Shown one piece after another: positions 52,425 to 62,129 of a stretch of DNA of 64,000 bases. Within the stretch, counting starts at the first letter, position 1, and each line of letters starts with the position of its first letter. Below the pieces are notes generated by a model. That model was not told the origin of the DNA. It worked only from the letters and a program-made list of their open reading frames with translations, and did not search any database. The stretch covers positions 28,156-92,155 of the forward strand of contig CAZLEQ010000004.1 of assembly GCA_964558575.1 (NCBI GenBank), written 5' to 3'. The DNA comes from an uncultured Acidimicrobiaceae bacterium. Its GTDB lineage: Bacteria > Actinomycetota > Acidimicrobiia > Spongiisociales > ZC4RG35. Position numbers and translations under genes: made by a program.

Positions 52425-52685
52425 TTGAGAAGTTTATCTGTGAAATTCTTGACCAGAGAAGGCTGCCATCTCTGCGACGAGGCGAGACCGGTCCTGGAGA
52501 AGGTGGCCAGGAGCATGAACGTGACCATCGAGGAGGTCGACATCGACGGCGACGACGAGCTCACCAAGCTCTACGGGCTCAGGGTTCCGGTGGTCCTGGG
52601 CACCCACGATCGGGTCCTCGCCGAAGGGGTCATCGACGATCGCAAGCTGCTGAAGGACGCGCTGAGGGGGGAAGTCGACCTCTAG
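52425..52685 (+). CDS. glutaredoxin-like (DUF836/thioredoxin-fold) small protein
   Basis: FLTREGCHLCDEARPVLE CxxC motif. GGAGAG 7 nt upstream of a TTG start (alternative GTG at 52440). Confidence 0.6.
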   Translation: MRSLSVKFLTREGCHLCDEARPVLEKVARSMNVTIEEVDIDGDDELTKLYGLRVPVVLGTHDRVLAEGVIDDRKLLKDALRGEVDL

Positions 52686-52690
52686 GCCGG

Positions 52691-53815
52691 CTATCCGGAG
52701 AGCCCGACCGAGGCGTCGGCGTCACCCTCGGGTGGCGCCTCTCCGTTCTCGGGGGCTTCCCCGTTTTCGGGTGTCTCCCCGTCTTCGGGTGTCTCCCCGT
52801 CTTCGGTTGGCTCCCCGTCTTCGGGTGTCTCCCCGTCTTCGGGTGTCTCCCCGTCGTCACCGTCGCCCGCGTCCGCGAGACCACAATCGACCAGCGTCTC
52901 GTCTGCGTTCGCACCTCCGAAGCGGACCCGTTCGAAGGCGACCACCGCCCGCAGTTGCTCGTCGGTGAGGGCCTGGTGTCCCGGCATGCCACCGGCCACC
53001 GGCTTGTTGGTGTCTCCGTAGGTGGCTTCGAACCCGGCCGATCCCAGGAGGACCCACTCGACATGGTCCTCACAGGCCCCGAAGGTGGTGAGCACGCCGG
53101 TCATCGCCGGGAAGCTTCCCACCCCTTGCCCATCGCCGCCATGGCAGCCGGCACAGGTCGAAGCCGCGGTCACCGCCCCCGCGTAGAGATCGCCTCCCAG
53201 AGCGATGAAGTCGGTGGTGCCTGGGCCGACTCCTCCGCCGGTGAACTCGGAGCCGTCGCAGTTGACGATCTCCCCGGAGATGATGTCGACTCTCAACTCG
53301 GTTCCCTCGCCACAGGCCCCCGTCGCCGAGCCGCCCAATGTGAACAGAGCGAACAACGGTGCGACCAGGAGCAGTCCCACCAGCCAGCGGGGGAGGTCGA
53401 AATTGGTCCTCTCCCTGATGCCGGCGGTGGGGACGGTCACCACCTCCGGCAGGTGGGCCGCCTCTGCGGCGGTGACCTCCGCTGGGGTTGGGGCCCGGGT
53501 GGGGGCTGTAGCGGCAGCGGCGGCAGGGGCAGGGGCCTCCGCCGGCTCCGGGGTCTCGATGACCGGCTCGGGTGCCGCCGGCTCCTCGGCGGCGTCCGGC
53601 TCCTCGGCTCTGGCCGTGTCCTCCGTCTCTATCTGCGGCTGATCTGCCTCCCCCGGACTCGCCTCGCTCGAAGGGGAGGAGACCGCCTCGCCTCCGGCCC
53701 AGGCGGCGAGGATCTCGTCCACGTTCGCCCCGGTCTCGGCGGCGCGCGCCTCCGCCGAGCGCTGTACCAGCGTCTCGGGCAGACCCATCGCCTCGGCTGC
53801 GGCGCTGAGGCTCAC
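52691..53815 (-). CDS. membrane-anchored monoheme c-type cytochrome, CcoO-like, with long cytoplasmic N-terminal extension and acidic C-terminal repeats
   Basis: 374 aa. N-terminus MSLSAAAEAMGLPETLVQRSAEARAAETGANVDEILAAWAGG. One TM. CAGCH heme motif. C-terminal (DGETPE)n tail. Confidence 0.7.
   Translation of the reverse strand: MSLSAAAEAMGLPETLVQRSAEARAAETGANVDEILAAWAGGEAVSSPSSEASPGEADQPQIETEDTARAEEPDAAEEPAAPEPVIETPEPAEAPAPAAAAATAPTRAPTPAEVTAAEAAHLPEVVTVPTAGIRERTNFDLPRWLVGLLLVAPLFALFTLGGSATGACGEGTELRVDIISGEIVNCDGSEFTGGGVGPGTTDFIALGGDLYAGAVTAASTCAGCHGGDGQGVGSFPAMTGVLTTFGACEDHVEWVLLGSAGFEATYGDTNKPVAGGMPGHQALTDEQLRAVVAFERVRFGGANADETLVDCGLADAGDGDDGETPEDGETPEDGEPTEDGETPEDGETPENGEAPENGEAPPEGDADASVGLSG
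52741..52866. repeat. 18-bp tandem repeat (about 7 units, CCCCGTCTTCGGGTGTCT) inside the cytochrome c gene
   Basis: Read directly from sequence. Encodes DGETPEDGETPEDGEPTEDGETPEDGETPENGEAPENGEAP. Confidence 0.7.
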
Positions 53816-54591
53816 GATCCTCCTCCAGGAGCAGATTCGCTGAGATAGGCGACGAGGTCGTCGAGGTCCTCGGCGCTGAGATCGTGCCCCGGGTGCCCAC
53901 CGAACCCCCCGATGATGGCCTCGAATTGCGAAGTGGTGACTCTCGAGCCCACATCGGAGAGGTCAGGGCCGAGTCGCCTCGTGCCGAGGATCTGGTTGGT
54001 GTCGTTGAGTGTCACAGGGCCCAGTCCCACATCGGCTACCACCGGTCGCACCATCTGGGTGTGGCACGCCACACAGCCGGTGACGGCATAGACTTCCTGG
54101 CCACGGAGGGCTCCAGCCGAGAAGGCGATCTCCGAAGTGCGGGCTCCAGGGTTGTCGGTGGGGATCGATGGCCCCACCAGTCCCACCATGACGACGATGA
54201 TGAAGAGCCCGACGATGCCGGCGAGCACCGCCATCGGGTTGTCCTCGACTCCCACCAGCACGGGTGGCTTGTAGGGACCTGCGGGGACAGTCGGAGTGGG
54301 TGCTTCGGCCCGCTTCTCGGGGGTCTCGATCGCTACCTCCGGGGGCTTCGGCTCCTCGGCGGTGCCCGGTTCCTCGGCGACGGGCGTCTCCTCCGTCTCG
54401 GCCTGCGGCTGATCGACCACCTCCGGACTCGCCTCGCTCGAAGGGGAGGAGATCGCCTCGCCTCCGGCCCAGGCGGCGAGGATGTCGTCCACGTTCGCCC
54501 CGGTCTCGGCGGCGCGGGCCTCTGCCGAGCGCTGCACCAGCGTCTCGGGCAGACCCATGGCCTGGGCGGCGGCGGAGAGCTGGTCACTCAT
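53812..54591 (-). CDS. membrane-anchored monoheme c-type cytochrome, CcoO-like (paralog)
   Basis: 259 aa from MSDQLSAAAQAMGLPETLVQRSAEARAAETGANVDDILAAWAGG. One TM. CVACH heme motif. GTRRLGPDLSDVGSR and LVAYL CcoO-like elements. ATGA overlaps on both sides. Confidence 0.7.
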   Translation of the reverse strand: MSDQLSAAAQAMGLPETLVQRSAEARAAETGANVDDILAAWAGGEAISSPSSEASPEVVDQPQAETEETPVAEEPGTAEEPKPPEVAIETPEKRAEAPTPTVPAGPYKPPVLVGVEDNPMAVLAGIVGLFIIVVMVGLVGPSIPTDNPGARTSEIAFSAGALRGQEVYAVTGCVACHTQMVRPVVADVGLGPVTLNDTNQILGTRRLGPDLSDVGSRVTTSQFEAIIGGFGGHPGHDLSAEDLDDLVAYLSESAPGGGS

Positions 54592-56066
54592 CGGGCTCCT
54601 CCGACCTCTCGGCTCACCAGCACCTCCTGGGGGATCGCCCTCCCCCGGACGACGGTTCCGAAGATGATCCCCACATAGCCGAGGATCCCCAAGAACAGGA
54701 CGATCCCGAAGAGCACGCCGATCAGGACCAGAGTGTCGTAGGTGGCGCCGACGCCGCTCGCCCACCCCTCGCCGGTGTCAACATAGGCGGCGCTGTTGGA
54801 CCCGGCGATCCACGAATAGCCGGAGAGTATTCCGGCTGCACCGAGCGAGATGAGCAGACCCACGGCGCCCGAGATGGTTAGACGCTGGAATCTGCGTGCC
54901 TTGGCCTTGGTCTCCAGTTCCTTACCCACCATGCGGGGAAGGGCGGCGAAGCTGACACTCGACACGAGAAGGGCCCCGATGCCGGTGAGGGAGACGTATT
55001 CGACGGCCTCCCAGAAGGCGGTCAACGACGTCACCGAGCCCACTGACCGGAATCCGGCGAGGGCGGCTACGGCGGCGACACCGAACGTCAGGTAGAGACC
55101 GAGGACTCCGGAGAGCACTCCCGGCTTCTCACCCAGTCGAGACCACGATCCCTCCAGTGTCATCGAGACGTTGGCGGCATTGGCCAGTGCTCCGATCGGC
55201 CAGGCGAGGCCGAGGGCCGCGGCCACACCGGCGACCCAGCCGGGGCCGGGCCCGAAGAGCAACTGGGCGGCTCCCCACCAGACCGCTGCGAAACCCAGCG
55301 ACCAGAACCCGACCAGGGCGAGCTGACGGCTGGCCAAGGGGATGTCCAGCTCCTTGACCGTCGTGTAGTACACGAGACCCGAGCCCACCGTGACCAGGAA
55401 CATGGTCACGAACCCGGCGAGGAAGAACGTCTCGGCATACGCGATGGTCACCGCCGAAGCAGCCGGCACCTCGGAGGCCAGGTGGGCGACATAGAGGAGG
55501 GGCAGCCAAATGACACCACCGAGCACGAACCACAGAGTCACGAAGCTGCGCTGCTCCTCGCGTCTGCGAATGGTGTTGACCGTCACCAGGGCGGGCACGA
55601 ACAGCACCGCAGCCAGAGGTAGGTCGAGCCACCAGGCGAGACCGAGCGGCTGACGGCCGTTGCCGAGGCCGAAGGAGATGGCGAGCACGCCCAGGGCGGT
55701 GAGGCCGGCCATTCCGAGGAGGCCGAGCCCGGCGATGCCGGCCCCCCAAAGCCGCGCCCCGGTGAGTCGGGGAAGCACGTAGTAGATCCCGCCGACCAGC
55801 GAAACGGCACCGAAGCCGATCATGAGGGTCAGGTTGGCGGCGCTCTCCAAGCGCCCGTACGGGAGGGGCAAGAGCGATCCAAAGCGGAGGGCGATCAAGG
55901 AGAGGAGCTGGAGGGCGCCTCCCAGGACCAGGAAGACCCCACCCACCAGCAAATGGGTGACTGCGAGGCGGTCTTCGACGCTTCCGCCGCCGAGCAGGGC
56001 TCGCATGTCTGCTGTTCGGGTGTCAGTCAACCGTCTTCCTCGCACCAGAAGGGACGGCGGGAGCAT
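54588..56066 (-). CDS. cbb3-type cytochrome oxidase subunit I (CcoN) homologue lacking the canonical His ligand set
   Basis: 492 aa, 12 TM. GAVSLVGGIYYVLPRLTGARLW aligns with CcoN [23 protein letters not shown], but the TM2 heme His is Asn. Only two His residues occur in the whole protein. Confidence 0.6.
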   Translation of the reverse strand: MLPPSLLVRGRRLTDTRTADMRALLGGGSVEDRLAVTHLLVGGVFLVLGGALQLLSLIALRFGSLLPLPYGRLESAANLTLMIGFGAVSLVGGIYYVLPRLTGARLWGAGIAGLGLLGMAGLTALGVLAISFGLGNGRQPLGLAWWLDLPLAAVLFVPALVTVNTIRRREEQRSFVTLWFVLGGVIWLPLLYVAHLASEVPAASAVTIAYAETFFLAGFVTMFLVTVGSGLVYYTTVKELDIPLASRQLALVGFWSLGFAAVWWGAAQLLFGPGPGWVAGVAAALGLAWPIGALANAANVSMTLEGSWSRLGEKPGVLSGVLGLYLTFGVAAVAALAGFRSVGSVTSLTAFWEAVEYVSLTGIGALLVSSVSFAALPRMVGKELETKAKARRFQRLTISGAVGLLISLGAAGILSGYSWIAGSNSAAYVDTGEGWASGVGATYDTLVLIGVLFGIVLFLGILGYVGIIFGTVVRGRAIPQEVLVSREVGGAR

Positions 56067-56204
56067 AACTACTTCGTGGATTCAGTCCGTCACTGCATTG
56101 GGGACTGTCGGTGTCACGACCGCCGGGTTCTCGAACCAGGACCCACCTGTGGTAGAAACGAACCGACAAACGTCTTTTCCGCGTCTGGGATCTACGTAAA
56201 GAAC

Positions 56205-56834
56205 ATGTATCGCCTCGCAGAATTAAGCGACCTCCGCCGCAGGAGGATCGGCGGCGGCCTGCTCTTCCTCGGTTTGGCGGGCCTCGTACTCGGGGTCATC
56301 TGGATTCACTGGTCGTCGATCCCCGAGACCGAGTCGGTCAACGGTGTCGAGGTCCCGGTCGTCGTCGACTACCTCAACTGGTGGCCGCGCGGGATCCTCT
56401 GGAAGGGGGTCGGGTATCTGGTAGTGCTCGGAGCGACCACCATGACCTTGGTCGGGGCCACCTTCCTCTGGGTGCTCAATCAGAGAATGACCTGGGCCCG
56501 TGCCACCGTGGCCGCCATCATCGCCTGGGTAGCCCTGGTGTTCTACTTCGGGATGGTTCCCTCGGAGTGGCTCAACTACGCCCAGACCGACCTCGATTGG
56601 TCCTCGCAGCGGGCCGCCATCACCATTCCCCCGTTCCTGGTCCTGGGCAACACCGTCGACATCAGTTGGGCCGTGATCAAAGACTCCATCCAGATGGGCT
56701 ACAGCCTCGGCTTGCTCGGTTTCGCCGCCGTCCTCGCCATCCAGATGCAGAAGATGAAGGAGGGGCGGCCCCCCAGCGCCGCACCCGCCGAGAAGAAGTC
56801 GCCATACGGCCGCCCGCTGGTGAGGGGGAACTGA
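56205..56834 (+). CDS. 4-TM membrane protein, first gene of the Rieske/cytochrome b operon
   Basis: 209 aa from MYRLAELSDLRRRRIGGGLLFLGL. No family recognised. Its stop overlaps the ferredoxin ATG. Confidence 0.45.
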   Translation: MYRLAELSDLRRRRIGGGLLFLGLAGLVLGVIWIHWSSIPETESVNGVEVPVVVDYLNWWPRGILWKGVGYLVVLGATTMTLVGATFLWVLNQRMTWARATVAAIIAWVALVFYFGMVPSEWLNYAQTDLDWSSQRAAITIPPFLVLGNTVDISWAVIKDSIQMGYSLGLLGFAAVLAIQMQKMKEGRPPSAAPAEKKSPYGRPLVRGN

Positions 56835-57283
56835 TGCCCAAGGGAGTCATCGACGAGACCCCGCCGATCAGGGACGACTACCAGCTCGCGGTGGTCGAGG
56901 GTGACTACTTCGCCGACAAATTGCGCCCCAAGCAGTTCCTGCACATCGACCAGTCGGAGTGCATCCTGTGTGAAGGATGTGTCGACATCTGCCCGTGGAA
57001 GTGCATCCACTACCTGTCGCTCGACGCCATCGCCGAGGCGGTCAACGTGGACCACCCCGGGGAGGACACCCAGAACATGGGTTTCTTCATCGTCGACGAG
57101 GACGAGTGCACCCGGTGCGCGCTGTGTATCGACAGATGCCCGACCAACGTCATCACCTTGGGCAAGTTCGAAGGCTCGCTCGCCGAACAGGCGCAAGAGC
57201 TGGGTCTCGACCGTCGTCCCTGGGACTTGGACACCGGGCAGCGTGACTTCAAGAATGGTTACTCGTACGGGATGCGCTGGTAG
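56834..57283 (+). CDS. 2x[4Fe-4S] ferredoxin-like protein
   Basis: CILCEGCVDICP and CTRCALCIDRCP cluster motifs. Confidence 0.75.
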   Translation: MPKGVIDETPPIRDDYQLAVVEGDYFADKLRPKQFLHIDQSECILCEGCVDICPWKCIHYLSLDAIAEAVNVDHPGEDTQNMGFFIVDEDECTRCALCIDRCPTNVITLGKFEGSLAEQAQELGLDRRPWDLDTGQRDFKNGYSYGMRW

Positions 57284-57299: not shown

Positions 57300-58076
57300 A
57301 TGGCCAACGGAAACGGCAGAGTCGGACTGAGAGAGCGAGTAAGGGAGGGCGCGGAGAAGGTCTGGAACTCACAGGTCGCCGAGTCGATCATGCGTCCCGG
57401 CTCACCGTTCAAACAGGGATACTCGGACAGCCCGAGGAACCGCTCCTACGTGGTGATGAACAACGTGCTCTATCACCTCCACCCGGTGAAGGTGAAGCGG
57501 CACGGGGTGAAGCTCTCCTACACCCTGTGCCTCGGGGGCTTGAGCTTCTTTCTCTTCATCCTGCTCACCATCACCGGCATCTTCCTGATGTTCTATTACA
57601 CCCCGACCGCGGAACTCGCCTACTCGGACATGGAGGCCCTGTCGACGGACGTGGCCTTCGGGTCGCTGGTGAGGAACATGCATCGGTGGGGAGCCCACCT
57701 GATGGTGTTGTCGGTTTTCCTCCACATGAGCCGGGTGTTCTATCACGGGGCCTACAAACCGCCGCGTGAGTTCAACTGGGTGGTGGGCGTGGTCCTTCTC
57801 TTCCTCACCCTGTTCCTCTCGTTCTCCGGCTATCTGCTGCCCTGGGACCAGCTGGCGCTGTGGGCGGTCACCGTGGGCTCCAACATGGCCGGTTTCTCAC
57901 CGGTGATCGGTGAGCAGGTCAAGTTCGCCCTCCTCGCCGGGGTGGAGGTGACCGGGGCGACGTTGCTCCGCTTCTATGTGCTCCATGTGCTCGCCTTCCC
58001 GTTCATCCTGGTCATCTTCCTGGCGGTCCACTTCTGGCGGGTCCGCAAGGACGGCGGAATCTCGGGGCCCTTGTAA
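57300..58076 (+). CDS. cytochrome b6-type (split cytochrome b, N-terminal heme-binding half)
   Basis: 258 aa, four TM. Bis-His pairs ([12 protein letters not shown] and [22 protein letters not shown]). PetB/QcrB N-domain pattern. Confidence 0.85.
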
Positions 58077-58085
58077 GGAGTATCG

Positions 58086-59147
58086 ATGGTGGAGATCCCA
58101 GAGAGCCTGCTGAGACGATCGGCCGAAGCCAAGGCCAAGGCCTTGGGCGTGCCGGTCGAACAGGTCCTCGCCGAGATGAAGGGTGAGGGCCCGCCGGTCG
58201 AGCCGCCCCAATTCGAACCCGAGGGCCCGGACACCGAGGACGTGGCCCTCGAGGACGATGCCGCCGAGCCCGTGGAAGAGGTGCCCGCCGACGACGAGGC
58301 AGAAGCCCAGTCGCCCGAGGTCTCCTCGGACATCGAACAGGACGTCTTGCCCACCGAACCCAAGGAAGCCACCGCCCCGCCGGAGGAGACGCCGCGGGCG
58401 ATGGTCGCCGAGGCGGGAGCGGTCGCAGTCGCCGAAGCCGATGAGACCGAGGAAGCCGAGCAGGACGATGACGGTGACGACGGCGAGGAGTCCCCGGAAG
58501 TGGACGTCGAGGACCTGGAGGAAGGCTCCCCGGGGAACGGCTCAGGAAACGGCGCCGGCGACGGCAAGGTGGCCGCGATGGTCAGCCCCCGGCCCTCGGT
58601 ACCTCCGACCGGGCTTCCCGAGGGAGTCCGCACCCAGCGTCTCCTCACGGTGGTCAAGGCCAGGGCGATCCAGAATGTCAAGGCGGAGCCGACCGACAAG
58701 GTGAACACCTGGCCCCATCTCATGCTCATGGAGTTCGGTGCCCTGCTCGCCATCACCGGCCTGCTGGTGATCATGTCGGTGGTGATCCACTCGCCGTTGC
58801 TGGAGCCGGCCAACTTCAACGCCACTCCCAACCCCTCCAAGGCGCCGTGGTACTTCCTCGGGCTCCAGGAACTGCTCAGCTACTTCGATCCGCAGATCGC
58901 CGGGGTCATGGTCCCGCTGTTCATCGGGATGATCGGGTTCATGCTGATTCCCTACGTCGACAAGAATCCCTCCACCCGGCCCACCGACCGCAAGTTCGCC
59001 ATCATGCTCTACTCGTTCTTCCTGGCGGGATCGGCGACCCTGACCATCATCGGCGTTCTGTTCCGGGGTCAAGGGTTCAATTTCACCTTTCCGTGGCGGG
59101 ACGGAGTGTTCTTCGACGACCTGAAAGACTGGGTGCACTTCGAATGA
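58086..59147 (+). CDS. cytochrome bc complex subunit IV (PetD-like) with long acidic N-terminal extension
   Basis: AAGGAG SD. C-terminal 3-TM PetD-like domain (NTWPHLMLMEFG...KAPWYFLGLQELL). N-terminus MVEIPESLLRRSAEAKAKALGVPVEQVLAEMKG followed by an E/D/P-rich region. Confidence 0.8.
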   Translation: MVEIPESLLRRSAEAKAKALGVPVEQVLAEMKGEGPPVEPPQFEPEGPDTEDVALEDDAAEPVEEVPADDEAEAQSPEVSSDIEQDVLPTEPKEATAPPEETPRAMVAEAGAVAVAEADETEEAEQDDDGDDGEESPEVDVEDLEEGSPGNGSGNGAGDGKVAAMVSPRPSVPPTGLPEGVRTQRLLTVVKARAIQNVKAEPTDKVNTWPHLMLMEFGALLAITGLLVIMSVVIHSPLLEPANFNATPNPSKAPWYFLGLQELLSYFDPQIAGVMVPLFIGMIGFMLIPYVDKNPSTRPTDRKFAIMLYSFFLAGSATLTIIGVLFRGQGFNFTFPWRDGVFFDDLKDWVHFE

Positions 59148-60037
59148 CGTTCGCCAACTGGATTCTCGTCGCCGTCGCGGTATTCGCCATCCTCGGAGCG
59201 GTTGGCGCCTTCACCATCGCCTTTCGTCGCACCAGGGCCGAGCGGCCCGATCCCACGGCGGGGGTCTCCGATGAGACCCGACGGGCCGACCGGTCGATGA
59301 TTGGGGTGCGCGTCGACCCGATCCCCGTGCCCGAGGCGGAACCAGATGAAGTCGACGAGACCCCTGAAGTCGGAGAAGCCGCCGAGGGGGAGCCGTCCGA
59401 GGGCAAGGAGGAGAGGGAACTGGTTGGCGCCGGGGCCGCGGTCGAGGTCGTCGAGGCCCAGCGTGTCGTCGAAGTCAGCCCCGAGGAGTCCGGTGTCAGC
59501 CGGCGTCAGTTCTTCAACCGCGCCATCGGCGCCACCTTCGGGTTGTTTCTCGGTCTGCAAGGTGTCTACTACCTGGCCTTCTTCTGGCCGAAGCTGAGCG
59601 GCGGCTTCGGCACCGACGTCGATGCCGGGTCCCTCGAGGCTCTCTCTGCCCAGACCGTCAATCCCGATGGTTCGGTGGTGCCGGTCTTCGTTCCCGAGGC
59701 GCGGGCCTACATCGTCCCCGCCCCCGACACCCTCTCCAGTCAGTACGAAGGGCGCGACGTCGCCGCCGGCGGTTTCATGGCCCTTTTCCAGCGATGCGTC
59801 CACCTGGGATGCCGGGTGCCGTGGTGCTCCACCTCGATCGGGTTCGAATGCCCCTGCCATGGGTCCCGGTACAACTCCATCGGCGAATACTTCTCGGGCC
59901 CGGCGCCGAGGAACCTCGACCGTTTCGTGGTCGAGGTCAGAGAGGATCGCTTCATAGTCCGCACTGGCACCATCATCGAGACGCCCCGCGCTCCCCGAGC
60001 GAGTGTCTCGTATCCACAGGGCCCGAGTTGCATCTGA
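59144..60037 (+). CDS. Rieske [2Fe-2S] iron-sulfur protein (Tat substrate)
   Basis: ATGA overlap with subunit IV. TM/Tat motif SRRQFFNRAIG. CVHLGC...CPCHGS cluster boxes. Confidence 0.85.
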   Translation: MTFANWILVAVAVFAILGAVGAFTIAFRRTRAERPDPTAGVSDETRRADRSMIGVRVDPIPVPEAEPDEVDETPEVGEAAEGEPSEGKEERELVGAGAAVEVVEAQRVVEVSPEESGVSRRQFFNRAIGATFGLFLGLQGVYYLAFFWPKLSGGFGTDVDAGSLEALSAQTVNPDGSVVPVFVPEARAYIVPAPDTLSSQYEGRDVAAGGFMALFQRCVHLGCRVPWCSTSIGFECPCHGSRYNSIGEYFSGPAPRNLDRFVVEVREDRFIVRTGTIIETPRAPRASVSYPQGPSCI

Positions 60038-60059
60038 TGGTCGAGATGGAGGCCGGGAA

Positions 60060-61766
60060 GTGACCGCCGACGTAGTCATCGTCCTCGCCGTCGTCGCCGG
60101 GATCATCTGGCTCGGTTTGATGCTGGTCTCGGCGCTGAGGAACCGGGGTGGGGTGGAGGAAGTCGCTCCCAACCTCAAGCCCGGCATCGACGACCAACAG
60201 CTCGAGACCAGGCGGCTCGAGGGAGGACAGAAGGCGGCCATCGCCTTCTCCGCCTTCCTCGCCATCTCACTGCCGCTCTACTTCCTCGGCGAGAACAGCC
60301 GCCAAGAGGGGTTCGTGGAGGAGTTCGCAGAGGCCTCCGTCGAGCGGGGTGAGCATCTGGTCGAGGAGTTCGCCTGTTTCGACTGCCACGGCCCGCTCGG
60401 CTCCGGCGGCTCGGCGCCGTTCGTCGAGCAGCGATCGGGCATCAGCGTCTCGTGGGCGGCTCCCCGGCTCGATGACATCCTTTATCGATACGACGAGGAC
60501 GCGGTCAACTTCTGGATCACCTATGGCCGGGGCAATACGCCGATGCCGGCATGGGGTCTCGCCGGGGGTGGCCCGATGAACGAGAATCAGGTCGAAGACG
60601 TGGTCAACTATCTGGCGACCATCCAGATACCCCAGCAGGAGGCGGTCGACCACACCCCGCTCCTGATCGACCAGGAGCTCGGGCGGCTCGCCAATGCTGC
60701 GGGTACCGTCGAGCAGGCGATCATCAACCAGGCTCAGACGCTCGCCGAGATCGACCAGGCGCCCGAGGATCTCGCCGTCATCGGGCCTCTTGCCGACCGG
60801 GCGGTCGAGATCGTCGACAATCCGGACGACGGCATCGACACCGACGGTGACGGGCTCTCCGATGCTGCCGAGGCGGAGTTGTCGGATATCTCGGCACGGG
60901 CCGTGGAGCACTTCCGGGTGATCGAGCCCGTGACCCTCGACCCCGAGACTCCCGATGCCGAGCTGGTCGACGCAGTCCTCGCCGAGATGGAGGCAGCTCT
61001 CGACACCAATCCCGTATTCGAGATCTACATCAACCGGATCGAGGCAGCCCTCGAGGGCGACGAGATCAGTGAGGAGTCCCCAGACACCGATGGCGACGGA
61101 ATCTCGGATGCCGCGGAGGGTGCGATCAGTGGTCTGATCTCGGAGGCGAGCTCGGCCACCGTCCCCTCGGGGGTCACCCAGATCGACCTCGATCCGACCA
61201 ACCCCGAGACCACTGGTGACCCCGACCTCAGAACGGCCAATTCGATGGTCGGAGGGCTCGAGTCGATTGCCATCAACCTCAGGGTCGCCGTCGAGAACGT
61301 CGAGCGAATCCGACCCCAGCAGGAGGCCGGTCTCCAATTTCTGGTCGATTCCGCCGAGAGGGCGGCCTGGGAGGTCGATTTCGCCGGGGTCGCCGCGGCG
61401 ATGGGCGGTTCCGAGGACGACGCCCGGCGGGCGGTTGCGCTATTCAACGCCTACTGCGCCCGGTGCCACACCGCAGGTTTCTCCGCCGGCATGGCCTACA
61501 CCCAGGAGATCGGCTCCGGCGGATTCGGCCCCGCTCTCTGGGACGGGAGACCGGTGGTCCAGTTCGGCGACGAACCGGCAGACCCGGATCAGACCGACCT
61601 GCTCGTCGACTTCATAATCAATGGATCTCAACCCGAGACGCCCTACGGGCTCAACGGGTTCGGGTCGGGTCGGATGCCCGCGTTCGGCGCCGTCCTCGAC
61701 CAGGACGACATCGACCTCCTCGCCCGCTATCTCCGCGCCGGCAATCTGAACGGAATGGAGGACTAG
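60060..61766 (+). CDS. membrane-anchored diheme c-type cytochrome with an inserted domain of about 330 aa carrying thrombospondin-type-3-like Ca-binding repeats
   Basis: GTG start with GGAGG SD. N-terminal TM. Heme motifs CFDCH and CARCH. DTDGDGLSDAAE and DTDGDGISDAAE (DxDxDGxxD) loops between them. Confidence 0.7.
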   Translation: MTADVVIVLAVVAGIIWLGLMLVSALRNRGGVEEVAPNLKPGIDDQQLETRRLEGGQKAAIAFSAFLAISLPLYFLGENSRQEGFVEEFAEASVERGEHLVEEFACFDCHGPLGSGGSAPFVEQRSGISVSWAAPRLDDILYRYDEDAVNFWITYGRGNTPMPAWGLAGGGPMNENQVEDVVNYLATIQIPQQEAVDHTPLLIDQELGRLANAAGTVEQAIINQAQTLAEIDQAPEDLAVIGPLADRAVEIVDNPDDGIDTDGDGLSDAAEAELSDISARAVEHFRVIEPVTLDPETPDAELVDAVLAEMEAALDTNPVFEIYINRIEAALEGDEISEESPDTDGDGISDAAEGAISGLISEASSATVPSGVTQIDLDPTNPETTGDPDLRTANSMVGGLESIAINLRVAVENVERIRPQQEAGLQFLVDSAERAAWEVDFAGVAAAMGGSEDDARRAVALFNAYCARCHTAGFSAGMAYTQEIGSGGFGPALWDGRPVVQFGDEPADPDQTDLLVDFIINGSQPETPYGLNGFGSGRMPAFGAVLDQDDIDLLARYLRAGNLNGMED

Positions 61767-61769
61767 GCG

Positions 61770-62129
61770 ATGTTTCGTGAGCTCTTCAGATCGCTTCTCT
61801 CGGCCAACGTGTTCGTCACCGGCATCATCCTGACCGCGGTCTCGGTGTTGCTCTTCTTCGGCTCCATCTATCTCTTCAACCACACGAACCTGGGCCGACG
61901 TCTCGGATTCCTGGTCACCGGTGCGGCCGTCTTCGGCTGGTTGGCCCTCAACTCGATGCTGTTCGTCGTCTACGCGCCACGCGGCCCGATCCCCGAGAGC
62001 ATCGAAGGTCTCAACGCCTTCGAGATCCGCATCATCCCCATCACCTACCTGATGGTGTCCCTGGTGTTGTTCCTGGTGTTCCTGGTCGCCCTCCACCAAT
62101 ACGAGGAGACCAAGGAAGCCGGGGGGTAG
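61770..62129 (+). CDS. small 3-TM membrane protein, last gene of the Rieske/cytochrome b operon
   Basis: 119 aa. Starts 3 nt after the cytochrome c stop. No family recognised. Confidence 0.4.
   Translation: MFRELFRSLLSANVFVTGIILTAVSVLLFFGSIYLFNHTNLGRRLGFLVTGAAVFGWLALNSMLFVVYAPRGPIPESIEGLNAFEIRIIPITYLMVSLVLFLVFLVALHQYEETKEAGG

What the first reader, a model, noticed from the sequence alone, without database searches (positions are those of the whole stretch)
60060..61766. Diheme cytochrome c whose two heme domains are separated by calcium-binding TSP3-like repeats
CFDCH and CARCH are about 330 aa apart. The intervening region carries DTDGDGLSDAAE and DTDGDGISDAAE loops (the DxDxDGxxD pattern of thrombospondin type 3, OmpA-like or EF-hand-like Ca sites) and long acidic helices. 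A Ca-dependent or surface-binding extension on a bc-complex cytochrome is unusual.
Basis: seen in the sequence. Interest (0 to 1): 0.6.

Follow-up and report, generated by a model that had tools for sequence, protein, structure and literature searches.

The report
Diheme cytochrome with calcium-loop helical insert
This gene encodes the membrane-anchored two-heme cytochrome c of a respiratory Rieske/cytochrome b complex in uncultured Acidimicrobiia, and in this lineage a folded, very acidic 260-residue helical domain with two conserved calcium-binding-type loops has been inserted between the two heme domains; it is a real but moderate novelty.

Summary
Window 60060-61766 (+) is one 568-aa gene with two CxxCH motifs (C106, C466; 360 residues apart, not ~330). 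It carries the only two DxDxDGxxD motifs in all six frames of the window, and Pfam TSP3_bac scores above its cut-off.

The protein is the last catalytic gene of a conserved operon: membrane protein, 2[4Fe-4S] ferredoxin, cytochrome b6, subunit IV, Rieske, diheme c, small membrane protein. This order is kept in about 80 Acidimicrobiia genomes.

Short orthologues in Acidimicrobiales sit in the same operon with hemes 112-140 residues apart and no motif. Their profile hits mycobacterial QcrC (E 3e-8).

So residues ~191-450 are a lineage-specific domain inserted in the inter-heme linker. AlphaFold2 folds it alone (pLDDT 95, all helical). It has no sequence or Foldseek match in the PDB. It contains an internal duplication of a unit [DxDxDGxxDxxE loop - helix - LDP loop].

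Of the 14 acidic residues conserved in at least 90% of sequences, 13 lie in these loops.

Ca2+ binding and the insert's role are inferred, not shown. The likeliest role is a Ca2+-stabilised structural or docking module on the outer face. Verdict: new variant of a known kind, interest 0.4.

The parts
60060..61766 (+). Whole gene: membrane-anchored diheme cytochrome c with helical insert (568 aa, GTG start, TAG stop)
   Evidence: ORF and RBS; 100% identical 568-aa database protein
60060..60299 (+). N-terminal transmembrane hairpin (residues 1-80; TM1 about 4-26, basic cytoplasmic loop, TM2 about 59-77). It places everything downstream on the outer (P) side.
   Evidence: Helices 2-27 and 45-77 in the model. 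Six R/K in the loop (positive-inside reasoning from the sequence). Conserved in short-form orthologues.
60300..60629 (+). Heme domain 1 (residues about 81-190): CFDCH at nt 60375-60389, distal Met162 at nt 60543-60545 in NTPMPAWG
   Evidence: Pfam Cytochrom_C, 39 bits against a cut-off of 21; C106, C109, H110 and M162 invariant in 93 sequences
60630..61409 (+). Inserted all-helical acidic domain (residues about 191-450), lineage-specific
   Evidence: AF2 alone gives pLDDT 95.1 and pTM 0.85. Absent from short-form orthologues. No PDB sequence hit at E up to 10 and no Foldseek hit below E 0.19.
60837..60872 (+). Ca-type loop 1, DTDGDGLSDAAE (D260-E271), followed by a helix starting at residue 268
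   Evidence: Pfam TSP3_bac. D260, D262, D264, D268 and E271 invariant in 93 sequences. Fixed at +153 to +156 from the heme-1 Cys in all 78 complete loci-derived homologues.
61083..61118 (+). Ca-type loop 2, DTDGDGISDAAE (D342-E353), followed by a helix starting at residue 350
   Evidence: Second TSP3_bac stretch. D342, D344, D346, G347 and E353 at least 90% conserved. Reads DPDGDGLSTAAE in the long-linker clade and is degenerate in a small short-linker clade.
60936..60956 (+). Conserved LDPETPD loop closing repeat unit 1 (L293-D299)
   Evidence: D294, P295 and D299 at least 90% conserved; aligns with unit 2 in the internal duplication
61188..61226 (+). Conserved LDPTNPETTGDPD loop closing repeat unit 2 (L377-D389)
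   Evidence: D378, P379 and D389 invariant; internal duplication at BLASTP E 1e-6
61410..61766 (+). Heme domain 2 (residues about 451-568): CARCH at nt 61455-61469, distal Met539 at nt 61674-61676 in GSGRMPAFG; c6/CcoP-like
   Evidence: Pfam Cytochrome_CBB3, 60 bits against a cut-off of 27; weak c6/CcoP PDB hits; C466, C469, H470 and M539 invariant
59144..60037 (+). Rieske [2Fe-2S] subunit, immediately upstream (presumed electron donor)
   Evidence: Pfam Rieske; NCBIfam b6f PetC-like; synteny in 79 of 80 loci
57300..59147 (+). Split cytochrome b: b6-like (57300-58076) and subunit IV-like with a roughly 200-aa acidic N-extension (58086-59147)
   Evidence: Pfam Cytochrome_B and Cytochrom_B_C; NCBIfam ExtP at 297 bits against a cut-off of 290, and cytochrome b6 at 210 bits
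56205..57283 (+). First two operon genes: unknown membrane protein (56205-56834) and 2[4Fe-4S] ferredoxin (56834-57283)
   Evidence: conserved also in short-form operons
61770..62129 (+). Small membrane protein, 4 nt downstream of the cytochrome; last operon gene
   Evidence: Conserved in 77 of 80 loci; no family hit

Best explanation
The gene encodes the c-type cytochrome subunit of the Rieske/cytochrome b6-type quinol oxidoreductase of an uncultured Acidimicrobiia lineage. It plays the role that QcrC plays in other Actinobacteria.

An N-terminal transmembrane hairpin anchors it. Both heme domains lie outside the membrane. Heme domain 1 takes electrons from the Rieske cluster and heme domain 2 passes them to the next acceptor.

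In this lineage the short linker between the heme domains has acquired a 260-residue, strongly acidic, autonomously folding helical domain. I infer its layout from helix lengths: a long helix goes out, two duplicated units [DxDxDGxxDxxE loop - helix - LDP loop - helix] form a distal head, and long helices return. Its two ends would then be close together, so the heme domains could still pack side by side as in the short ancestral form.

The two EF-hand-like/TSP3-type loops most likely bind Ca2+ constitutively on the Ca-rich outer face and rigidify the domain. The domain would serve as a structural or partner-docking module, not as part of the electron path.

Shown here: gene identity, operon membership, the insertion event, foldedness in the model, and motif conservation. 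Inferred: Ca2+ occupancy, the hairpin geometry, the order of electron flow, and the role of the insert.
For: - Two class-I heme c domains are above Pfam cut-offs, and TSP3_bac is above its cut-off.
- The operon memX-Fdx-b6-subunit IV-Rieske-diheme c-small TM is conserved in essentially all of 80 Acidimicrobiia loci.
- 194 species-level genomes encode a relative.
- Heme spacing across the wider family runs from 100 to 432 residues. TSP3 motifs are present only in the nearest relatives.
- Short-form orthologues (spacing about 112-140, no motif) come from Acidimicrobiales. They sit in the same core operon and share the TM hairpin and both heme domains.
- The short-form profile's best PDB hits are mycobacterial QcrC, E 3.3e-8.
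- The full-length AF2 model has pLDDT 87 and pTM 0.77. The insert alone has pLDDT 95 and pTM 0.85 and is all helical, with a helix starting at position 9 of each loop.
- D260, D262, D264, D268 and E271 are invariant in 93 sequences.
- 13 of the 14 acidic residues conserved in at least 90% of sequences in the insert lie in the four loops of the two units. The other 43 acidic residues vary.
- The insert contains an internal duplication, E 1e-6.
- The Dx[DN]xDG ligand scheme (positions 1, 3, 5, backbone 7, 9, 12), its repeated independent evolution, and its mainly extracellular occurrence are described in PMC3123361.
- A diheme cytochrome cc links complex III to complex IV in Actinobacteria that lack soluble cytochrome c (PMC8361435).
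Against: - No Ca2+ binding was measured.
- Pfam matches only the first 13 of the 22 TSP3_bac positions.
- EF-hand models do not hit. The hydrophobic residue sits at loop position 7, not 8, and the entering helix ends 6 residues before position 1.
- Loop 2 is degenerate in one small clade, so at least that site is dispensable.
- The long-form profile itself does not reach QcrC at E up to 1, and no NCBIfam QcrC model hits.
- The insert evolves faster than the heme domains (46-49% against 67-74% mean column identity to the query).
- The electron acceptor is unknown.
Confidence: 0.6

Rival explanations
1. The insert is a docking arm for a supercomplex. Its Ca-loop head would bind a partner complex: either a terminal oxidase, or the neighbouring CcoN-like/FixO-like/cytochrome c module. 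That would bring heme domain 2 into electron-transfer range, as the QcrC cc domain does in the actinobacterial III2IV2 supercomplex.
For: A divergent operon encoding a CcoN-like protein, a FixO-like monoheme protein and a monoheme cytochrome c adjoins the bc operon in 59 of 60 insert-bearing loci with enough flank. It is absent from all 4 short-form contexts examined. Heme domain 2 is CcoP/c6-like. Actinobacteria rely on obligate III-IV supercomplexes (PMC8361435).
Against: The co-occurrence amounts to one phylogenetic event, not independent replicates. The CcoN-like protein lacks all six metal-ligand histidines, so it cannot be a conventional oxidase. No interaction evidence exists.
Confidence: 0.2
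2. The insert is a Ca2+-responsive switch. Ca2+ binding or release would change the relative position of the two heme domains and gate electron flow. This would parallel the open and closed states of mycobacterial QcrC.
For: The loops are EF-hand-like and flanked by helices. A movable cc domain is known in M. smegmatis (PMC8361435).
Against: The domain lies outside the cell, where Ca2+ is normally far above EF-hand affinities, so the sites should be permanently filled. The model is a rigid, high-confidence bundle. Extracellular Dx[DN]xDG sites are typically structural (PMC3123361).
Confidence: 0.07
3. The insert is a cell-envelope or mineral-binding extension. The acidic stalk and TSP3-type loops would attach the cytochrome to the cell wall, an S-layer or metal oxides, for extracellular electron exchange.
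For: TSP3_bac repeats are common in bacterial surface proteins (Pfam family context, from memory). The insert has a net charge of about -47. The b6 subunit resembles Geobacter ExtP.
Against: The protein has only two hemes and cannot span an envelope. No multiheme, porin or other extracellular-electron-transfer genes lie in the operon. The gene is embedded in a standard quinol-oxidising module, which in short-form relatives sits next to complex I genes.
Confidence: 0.05
4. The insert is a neutral, tolerated acidic expansion with no specific function. This clade also shows acidic low-complexity growth in subunit IV, the Rieske protein, the FixO-like protein and the cytochrome c tail.
For: Several neighbouring proteins carry acidic extensions. 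The linker is an insertion hot spot with spacings from 100 to 432 residues. The insert is the least conserved part of the protein.
Against: Unlike those tails, the insert is predicted to fold with very high confidence. It has kept its length and register over 44-89% identity. Its ligand-type residues are invariant while the bulk acidic residues vary.
Confidence: 0.08

Closest known systems
QcrC, the diheme cytochrome cc subunit of the actinobacterial bcc complex (M. smegmatis 6HWH/6ADQ, M. tuberculosis 7E1V, C. glutamicum 7Q21)
   Same: Same phylum. Both are membrane-anchored proteins with two class-I heme c domains, encoded with the Rieske and cytochrome b genes. QcrC is the best PDB match of the short-form orthologue profile (E 3.3e-8). 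The presumed role is the same: FeS to heme 1 to heme 2 to acceptor, without soluble cytochrome c (PMC8361435).
   Different: There is no hit to an NCBIfam QcrC model and no hit from the long-form profile to QcrC at E up to 1. The anchor is an N-terminal TM hairpin. The partner cytochrome b is split (b6 plus subunit IV), and the Rieske protein is PetC-like rather than QcrA-like. The operon carries an extra ferredoxin and extra membrane proteins. A 260-residue helical Ca-loop domain separates the heme domains.
Short-form Acidimicrobiales orthologues (330-370 aa 'mono/diheme cytochrome c family protein')
   Same: Same TM hairpin, the same two heme domains with the same signature motifs, and the same core operon.
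   Different: Heme spacing is 112-140 residues with no insert and no DxDxDG motif. Their operon continues into the nuo genes and has no CcoN-like neighbour.
Bacterial TSP3 repeat (Pfam PF18884) and the Dx[DN]xDG Ca-binding loop class (EF-hand, thrombospondin T3, dockerin and others; PMC3123361)
   Same: D at positions 1, 3, 5 and 9, G at 6 and E at 12, with a helix starting at about position 9. The score is above the Pfam cut-off. The location is extracytoplasmic.
   Different: There are only two copies, 82 residues apart, each embedded in a helical unit. Only profile positions 1-13 match. There is no tandem array, no disulfides and no paired EF-hand. Ca2+ binding is not shown.
CcoP of cbb3 oxidases and cytochrome c6/c552
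   Same: Heme domain 2 matches PF13442 and has its weak best PDB and NCBIfam hits there.
   Different: Scores are far below the family cut-offs (31 against 180 bits for TIGR00782). The gene lies in the bc operon, not the cco-like operon.

Membership tests
Class I c-type cytochrome domain (Pfam PF00034 / PF13442), two copies | CxxCH heme-attachment motif in each domain | tested here: met
   CFDCH at 106-110 and CARCH at 466-470; all Cys and His invariant in 93 sequences
Class I c-type cytochrome domain (Pfam PF00034 / PF13442), two copies | Profile score above the curated cut-off | tested here: met
   PF13442 at 60 bits against 27; PF00034 at 39.2 bits against 21.3
Class I c-type cytochrome domain (Pfam PF00034 / PF13442), two copies | Distal methionine sixth ligand | tested here: met
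   M162 (NTPMPAWG) and M539 (GSGRMPAFG) are invariant. Domain 2 aligns with the c6 MPAFG motif. Actual ligation is not testable.
Bacterial TSP3 repeat (Pfam PF18884) | Profile score above the gathering cut-off | tested here: met
   32.5 bits against 25, E 7.6e-8, two stretches; 10 of 16 distant homologues also hit at E up to 0.01
Bacterial TSP3 repeat (Pfam PF18884) | Full-length repeat in a tandem array | tested here: not met
   Only profile positions 1-13 of 22 match. There are two copies 82 residues apart, separated by helices.
Dx[DN]xDG Ca2+-binding loop class | Acidic or oxygen ligands at loop positions 1, 3, 5, 9 and 12, and Gly at position 6 | tested here: met
   Loop 1 is D260, D262, D264, G265, D268, E271. 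Loop 2 is D342, D344, D346, G347, D350, E353. Accepted variants occur (N at position 6, T at position 9). The pattern follows PMC3123361.
Dx[DN]xDG Ca2+-binding loop class | Ca2+ actually bound with pentagonal-bipyramidal geometry | not testable with these tools
   Model coordinates are not exposed and AF2 places no ions. This needs a structure or ITC.
Canonical EF-hand (helix-loop-helix) | Match to EF-hand profiles, hydrophobic residue at loop position 8, and entering helix abutting position 1 | tested here: not met
   No EF-hand family at E up to 0.1. The hydrophobic residue (L266, I348) is at position 7. The entering helix ends at 253, six residues before D260.
Eukaryotic thrombospondin type 3 repeat (PF02412) and Calx-beta | Profile match | tested here: not met
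   Neither family is listed at E up to 0.1
Actinobacterial QcrC (bcc complex cytochrome cc) | Membrane-anchored diheme c encoded with the Rieske and cytochrome b genes of a quinol:cytochrome c oxidoreductase | tested here: met
   The operon is conserved in 80 loci and the gene starts 22 nt after the Rieske stop
Actinobacterial QcrC (bcc complex cytochrome cc) | Sequence membership (NCBIfam or PDB QcrC) | tested here: inconclusive
   No NCBIfam QcrC hit at E up to 0.01. The long-form profile gives no QcrC hit at E up to 1. The short-form orthologue profile hits QcrC at E 3.3e-8, but each matched stretch is weak on its own (i-E 0.02-0.06).
Actinobacterial QcrC (bcc complex cytochrome cc) | Partnered with unsplit QcrB and QcrA-type Rieske | tested here: not met
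   Cytochrome b is split. QcrB_actin scores 112 against 500 bits and QcrA_actin 27 against 275 bits. The best matches are b6/ExtP and PetC.

The most novel reading that the evidence does not exclude
The Ca-loop helical insert is the docking arm of a previously unseen respiratory assembly. In it, an Acidimicrobiia b6c-type complex is physically coupled to a module built around a CcoN homologue that has lost all heme and copper ligands but keeps its FixO-like and cytochrome c partners. The insert and that module would have arisen together and would depend on each other.
Probability: 0.12. Interest if true: 0.75.

Novelty: new variant of a known kind. Interest (0 to 1): 0.4.

Why it matters
Actinobacteria lack soluble cytochrome c, so the diheme subunit is the only wire between complex III and its acceptor. 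This work shows that a large, globally distributed, uncultured Acidimicrobiia clade has rebuilt that wire. The clade is found in soil, marine, sponge, coral and hot-spring metagenome-assembled genomes.

Three consequences follow:
- It defines a new, probably Ca2+-dependent domain with no solved structural relative.
- It gives a clean natural comparison for testing what such ectodomain elaborations do for assembly or partner choice: the short form in Acidimicrobiales against the long form in this clade, in the same operon.
- It flags that current annotation ('c-type cytochrome') hides this architecture.

It does not overturn any principle of bc-complex function.

Tried and rejected
- Foldseek against the PDB with the full model and with the insert alone gave only generic long-helix matches (best E 0.16 and 0.19, TM at most 0.23).
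- A PDB sequence search with the insert found nothing at E up to 10.
- Model coordinates are not exposed. Ca-site geometry, heme-heme distance and the stalk shape could therefore not be measured.
- Literature searches for TSP3 or Ca loops in cytochromes, Acidimicrobiia bc complexes, and Acidimicrobiia heme-copper oxidases found nothing relevant.
- I looked for a Rex operator between the divergent operons, because rex is a conserved neighbour. There was only one 3-mismatch hit elsewhere, at chance level, so I dropped the idea.
- Rfam and tRNA scans of the window were empty.
- I considered and rejected 'low-complexity acidic spacer' (high pLDDT, fixed register, invariant ligand residues).
- I also rejected 'EF-hand protein', 'Calx-beta' and 'eukaryotic TSP_3' (no profile hits).
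Full report
**Observation.** The finding's coordinates are exactly one gene on the + strand. GTG 60060 lies 7 nt after GGAGG (60048-60052), and the gene ends at TAG 61764-61766. It encodes 568 aa, identical to a database protein of the same length (P0001).
- CFDCH is residues 106-110 (nt 60375-60389) and CARCH is residues 466-470 (nt 61455-61469).
- The two first cysteines are 360 residues apart, not about 330.
- DTDGDGLSDAAE is residues 260-271 and DTDGDGISDAAE is residues 342-353.
- DxDxDGxxD occurs only twice in all six reading frames of the 64-kb window, both times here. The protein's own composition predicts 0.003 occurrences.
- Pfam gives Cytochrom_C (39 bits, cut-off 21), Cytochrome_CBB3 (60 bits, cut-off 27) and TSP3_bac PF18884 (32.5 bits, cut-off 25, two stretches).
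- No EF-hand, eukaryotic TSP_3 or Calx-beta family appears at E up to 0.1.

**Context.** The gene is the sixth of seven tightly spaced or overlapping + strand genes:
- an unknown membrane protein (56205-56834);
- a 2[4Fe-4S] ferredoxin (56834-57283);
- a cytochrome b6-like protein (57300-58076);
- a subunit IV-like protein with a roughly 200-aa acidic N-extension (58086-59147);
- a Rieske protein (59144-60037);
- the diheme cytochrome;
- a small membrane protein (61770-62129).

NCBIfam places the b and Rieske subunits with the b6/PetC/ExtP types. They score far below the cut-offs of the actinobacterial QcrB and QcrA models. A scan of one genome per species found 194 genomes with a relative. 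The best 80 are all Acidimicrobiia metagenome-assembled genomes (a few bins are mislabelled), with full-length matches from 89% down to 44% identity. In these loci the whole gene order is conserved wherever the flank is long enough, and rex lies downstream on the opposite strand in 57 of the 80.

**The family and the insertion event.** An exhaustive search of 1.8 billion cluster representatives found 705 relatives.
- They share the N-terminal TM hairpin and two heme c domains.
- The distance between the two CxxCH motifs ranges from 100 to 432 residues.
- Many have 112-140 residues (adjacent domains). Others have 150-310 residues (most at 150-260) without any DxDxDG.
- Only the nearest relatives (spacing 279-432) carry the motif.
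- The short forms align with the query across the TM hairpin and both heme domains, and lack everything between 'YL.SIQ' and 'LF..NCARCHT'.
- They are annotated as Acidimicrobiales or Actinomycetota.
- In four contexts they sit in the same core operon (membrane protein, ferredoxin, b6, subunit IV, Rieske, diheme c), here followed by complex I genes.

So residues about 191-450 of the window protein are a lineage-specific domain inserted into the inter-domain linker of an orthologous bc-complex subunit.

A profile of the short forms has mycobacterial and corynebacterial QcrC as its best PDB matches (E 3.3e-8 for the whole sequence, each stretch weak on its own). The long-form profile finds only weak c6, c552 and CcoP hits. 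I read this as a remote relationship and the same role, not as demonstrated membership.

**The insert.**
- *Fold.* AlphaFold2 with a 93-sequence alignment gives mean pLDDT 87 and pTM 0.77 for the whole protein. It gives pLDDT 95.1 and pTM 0.85 for residues 188-455 alone. The insert is therefore predicted to be an autonomous, all-helical domain.
- *Order of elements.* Helices 199-211 and 213-253; loop 254-267 with motif 1; helix 268-285; the LDPETPD loop; helices 300-312 and 320-332; loop 333-349 with motif 2; helix 350-366; the LDPTNPET..PD loop; helices 389-412, 414-434 and 441-448.
- *Duplication.* The two halves are an internal duplication (BLASTP E 1e-6, 40% identity over 42 residues).
- *Loop geometry in the model.* In both loops the exiting helix starts at loop position 9, as in Dx[DN]xDG sites. 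There, positions 1, 3 and 5, backbone 7, position 9, and Glu 12 at the start of the following helix coordinate Ca2+ (PMC3123361).
- *Register.* Motif 1 sits 153-156 residues after the heme-1 cysteine in all 78 complete homologues.
- *Invariant residues.* D260, D262, D264, D268 and E271 are invariant in 93 sequences.
- *Motif 2.* It is at least 90% conserved. It reads DPDGDGLSTAAE in a clade with a further 70-residue insertion, and it is degenerate only in a small short-linker clade.
- *Which acidic residues are conserved.* The insert has 57 acidic residues (net charge about -47). Only 14 are conserved in at least 90% of sequences, and 13 of those lie in the four loops of the two repeat units. 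That pattern indicates site-specific constraint rather than generic acidity.
- *Rate.* Outside the motifs the insert is the fastest-evolving part of the protein (46% against 67-74% mean column identity to the query).

**Mechanism, with the status of each step.**
- *Shown.* The protein is a membrane-anchored diheme class-I cytochrome encoded in a Rieske/b6 operon. The middle domain is an insertion. It is predicted to fold. It carries two conserved Ca-type loops.
- *Inferred from the sequence.* The topology is N-terminus out, a basic loop inside (six R/K), and everything after TM2 outside, as c-type heme attachment requires.
- *Inferred by analogy.* By comparison with QcrC (PMC8361435) and from gene order, electrons pass from the Rieske cluster to heme 1, next to the anchor, then to heme 2, then to an unknown acceptor.
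- *Inferred from helix lengths only.* A 41-residue outgoing helix and 24 plus 21 residues of returning helices suggest a hairpin stalk about 6 nm long. The duplicated Ca-loop units would form its distal head. The two ends of the insert would lie together, so the heme domains could pack as in the short form.
- *Inferred.* The sites are filled permanently by external Ca2+ and stabilise the domain, which acts as a structural or docking module.

I put 0.9 on the identity as the bc-complex diheme subunit, about 0.7 on real Ca2+ binding, and about 0.6 on the overall explanation.

**Rivals.**
- *Docking arm for a supercomplex (0.2).* This is the most interesting rival. Every insert-bearing locus with enough flank also has a divergent operon encoding CcoN-like, FixO-like and cytochrome c proteins. 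None of the four short-form contexts has it. But this is effectively one evolutionary event.
- *Ca2+-gated switch (0.07).* Unlikely for an extracellular site.
- *Envelope or mineral binding (0.05).* Nothing in the gene content supports it.
- *Neutral acidic expansion (0.08).* Contradicted by the fixed register, the invariant ligand residues and the confident fold.

**Comparison, novelty and score.**
- The protein works like QcrC but fails or only marginally meets sequence membership. Its partners are b6f-like rather than bcc-like.
- The loops meet the TSP3_bac cut-off and the Dx[DN]xDG pattern. They are two isolated half-repeats inside a new helical domain, not a TSP3 array, and they are not canonical EF-hands.
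- I found no paper describing this architecture. Public annotations say only 'c-type cytochrome' or 'mono/diheme cytochrome c family protein'.
- I classify it as a new variant of a known kind and score interest at 0.4. It is real, conserved, undescribed and structurally novel at the domain level. It remains an elaboration of a familiar subunit whose function is still inferred.

Noticed in passing
window 54588-56066 (-): A 492-aa homologue of cbb3 oxidase subunit CcoN (Pfam COX1 E 3e-16; PDB CcoN 6xkw_n E 1e-17) is transcribed divergently from the bc operon. It has lost all six metal-ligand histidines: HFW is now GFW, PHHLH is AAQLL, and GHVH is AVEY. It has only 2 His in total. Homologues in 58 related genomes carry 1-7 non-conserved His. 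It appears to be a conserved, cofactor-less heme-copper-oxidase scaffold of unknown function.
   Followed up: partly
window 52691-54591 (-): Two genes lie downstream of the CcoN-like gene and overlap by 4 nt (ATGA/GTGA). One is a FixO-like monoheme protein (53812-54591, CVACH). The other is a monoheme cytochrome c (52691-53815, CAGCH). The FixO-like gene with its CxxCH is conserved in 53 related loci. So the heme c partners are kept although the catalytic subunit is degenerate.
   Followed up: partly
window 53546-53809 and 54316-54579: A 264-nt direct repeat at 86% identity gives the FixO-like and cytochrome c proteins the same roughly 88-aa N-terminal module (LSAAAxAMGLPETLVQRSAEARAAETGANVDxILAAWAGGEA plus an acidic/Pro linker). 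A related motif (PESLLRRSAEAKAKALGVPVEQVLAEM) opens subunit IV at 58086. This may be a shared cytoplasmic module on three respiratory membrane proteins.
   Followed up: partly
window 52716-52877 (-): An 18-nt tandem repeat of about 9 copies encodes a (GETPED)n acidic tail at the C-terminus of the monoheme cytochrome c.
   Followed up: no
window 57300-58076 (+) and 58086-59147 (+): The cytochrome b6-like protein passes the NCBIfam cut-off for ExtP, the b cytochrome of the Geobacter selenite/tellurite 'ext' operon (297 against 290 bits). Subunit IV weakly resembles ExtQ (56 against 150 bits) and carries a roughly 200-aa highly acidic N-terminal extension that is shorter or absent in Acidimicrobiales orthologues (235-288 aa against 353 aa).
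   Followed up: partly
window 56205-57283 (+): An unknown 209-aa membrane protein and a 149-aa 2[4Fe-4S] ferredoxin are conserved as the first two genes of the Rieske/b6 operon in both long-form and short-form Acidimicrobiia. A cytoplasmic ferredoxin subunit is not part of classical bc1, b6f or bcc complexes.
   Followed up: no
window 62220-~62864 (-): A Rex-type redox-sensing repressor gene lies convergent to the operon end in 57 of 80 related loci. No Rex operator-like site was found in the 56066-56205 intergenic region (a single chance-level hit at 52438).
   Followed up: yes
whole protein 60060-61766 and neighbours: Lysine content is extremely low (0.4%, 2 K in 568 aa) against 18% D+E. Acidic expansions recur in several envelope-facing or membrane proteins of this cluster, which suggests a lineage-wide compositional trend.
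   Followed up: no
L042-L054, L061 (related loci): One sub-clade carries a further insertion of about 70 residues immediately before Ca-type loop 2 (heme spacing 420-431). Another (L034, L036, L038, L039) has lost loop 2 (spacing 348-349). The linker keeps being remodelled.
   Followed up: partly
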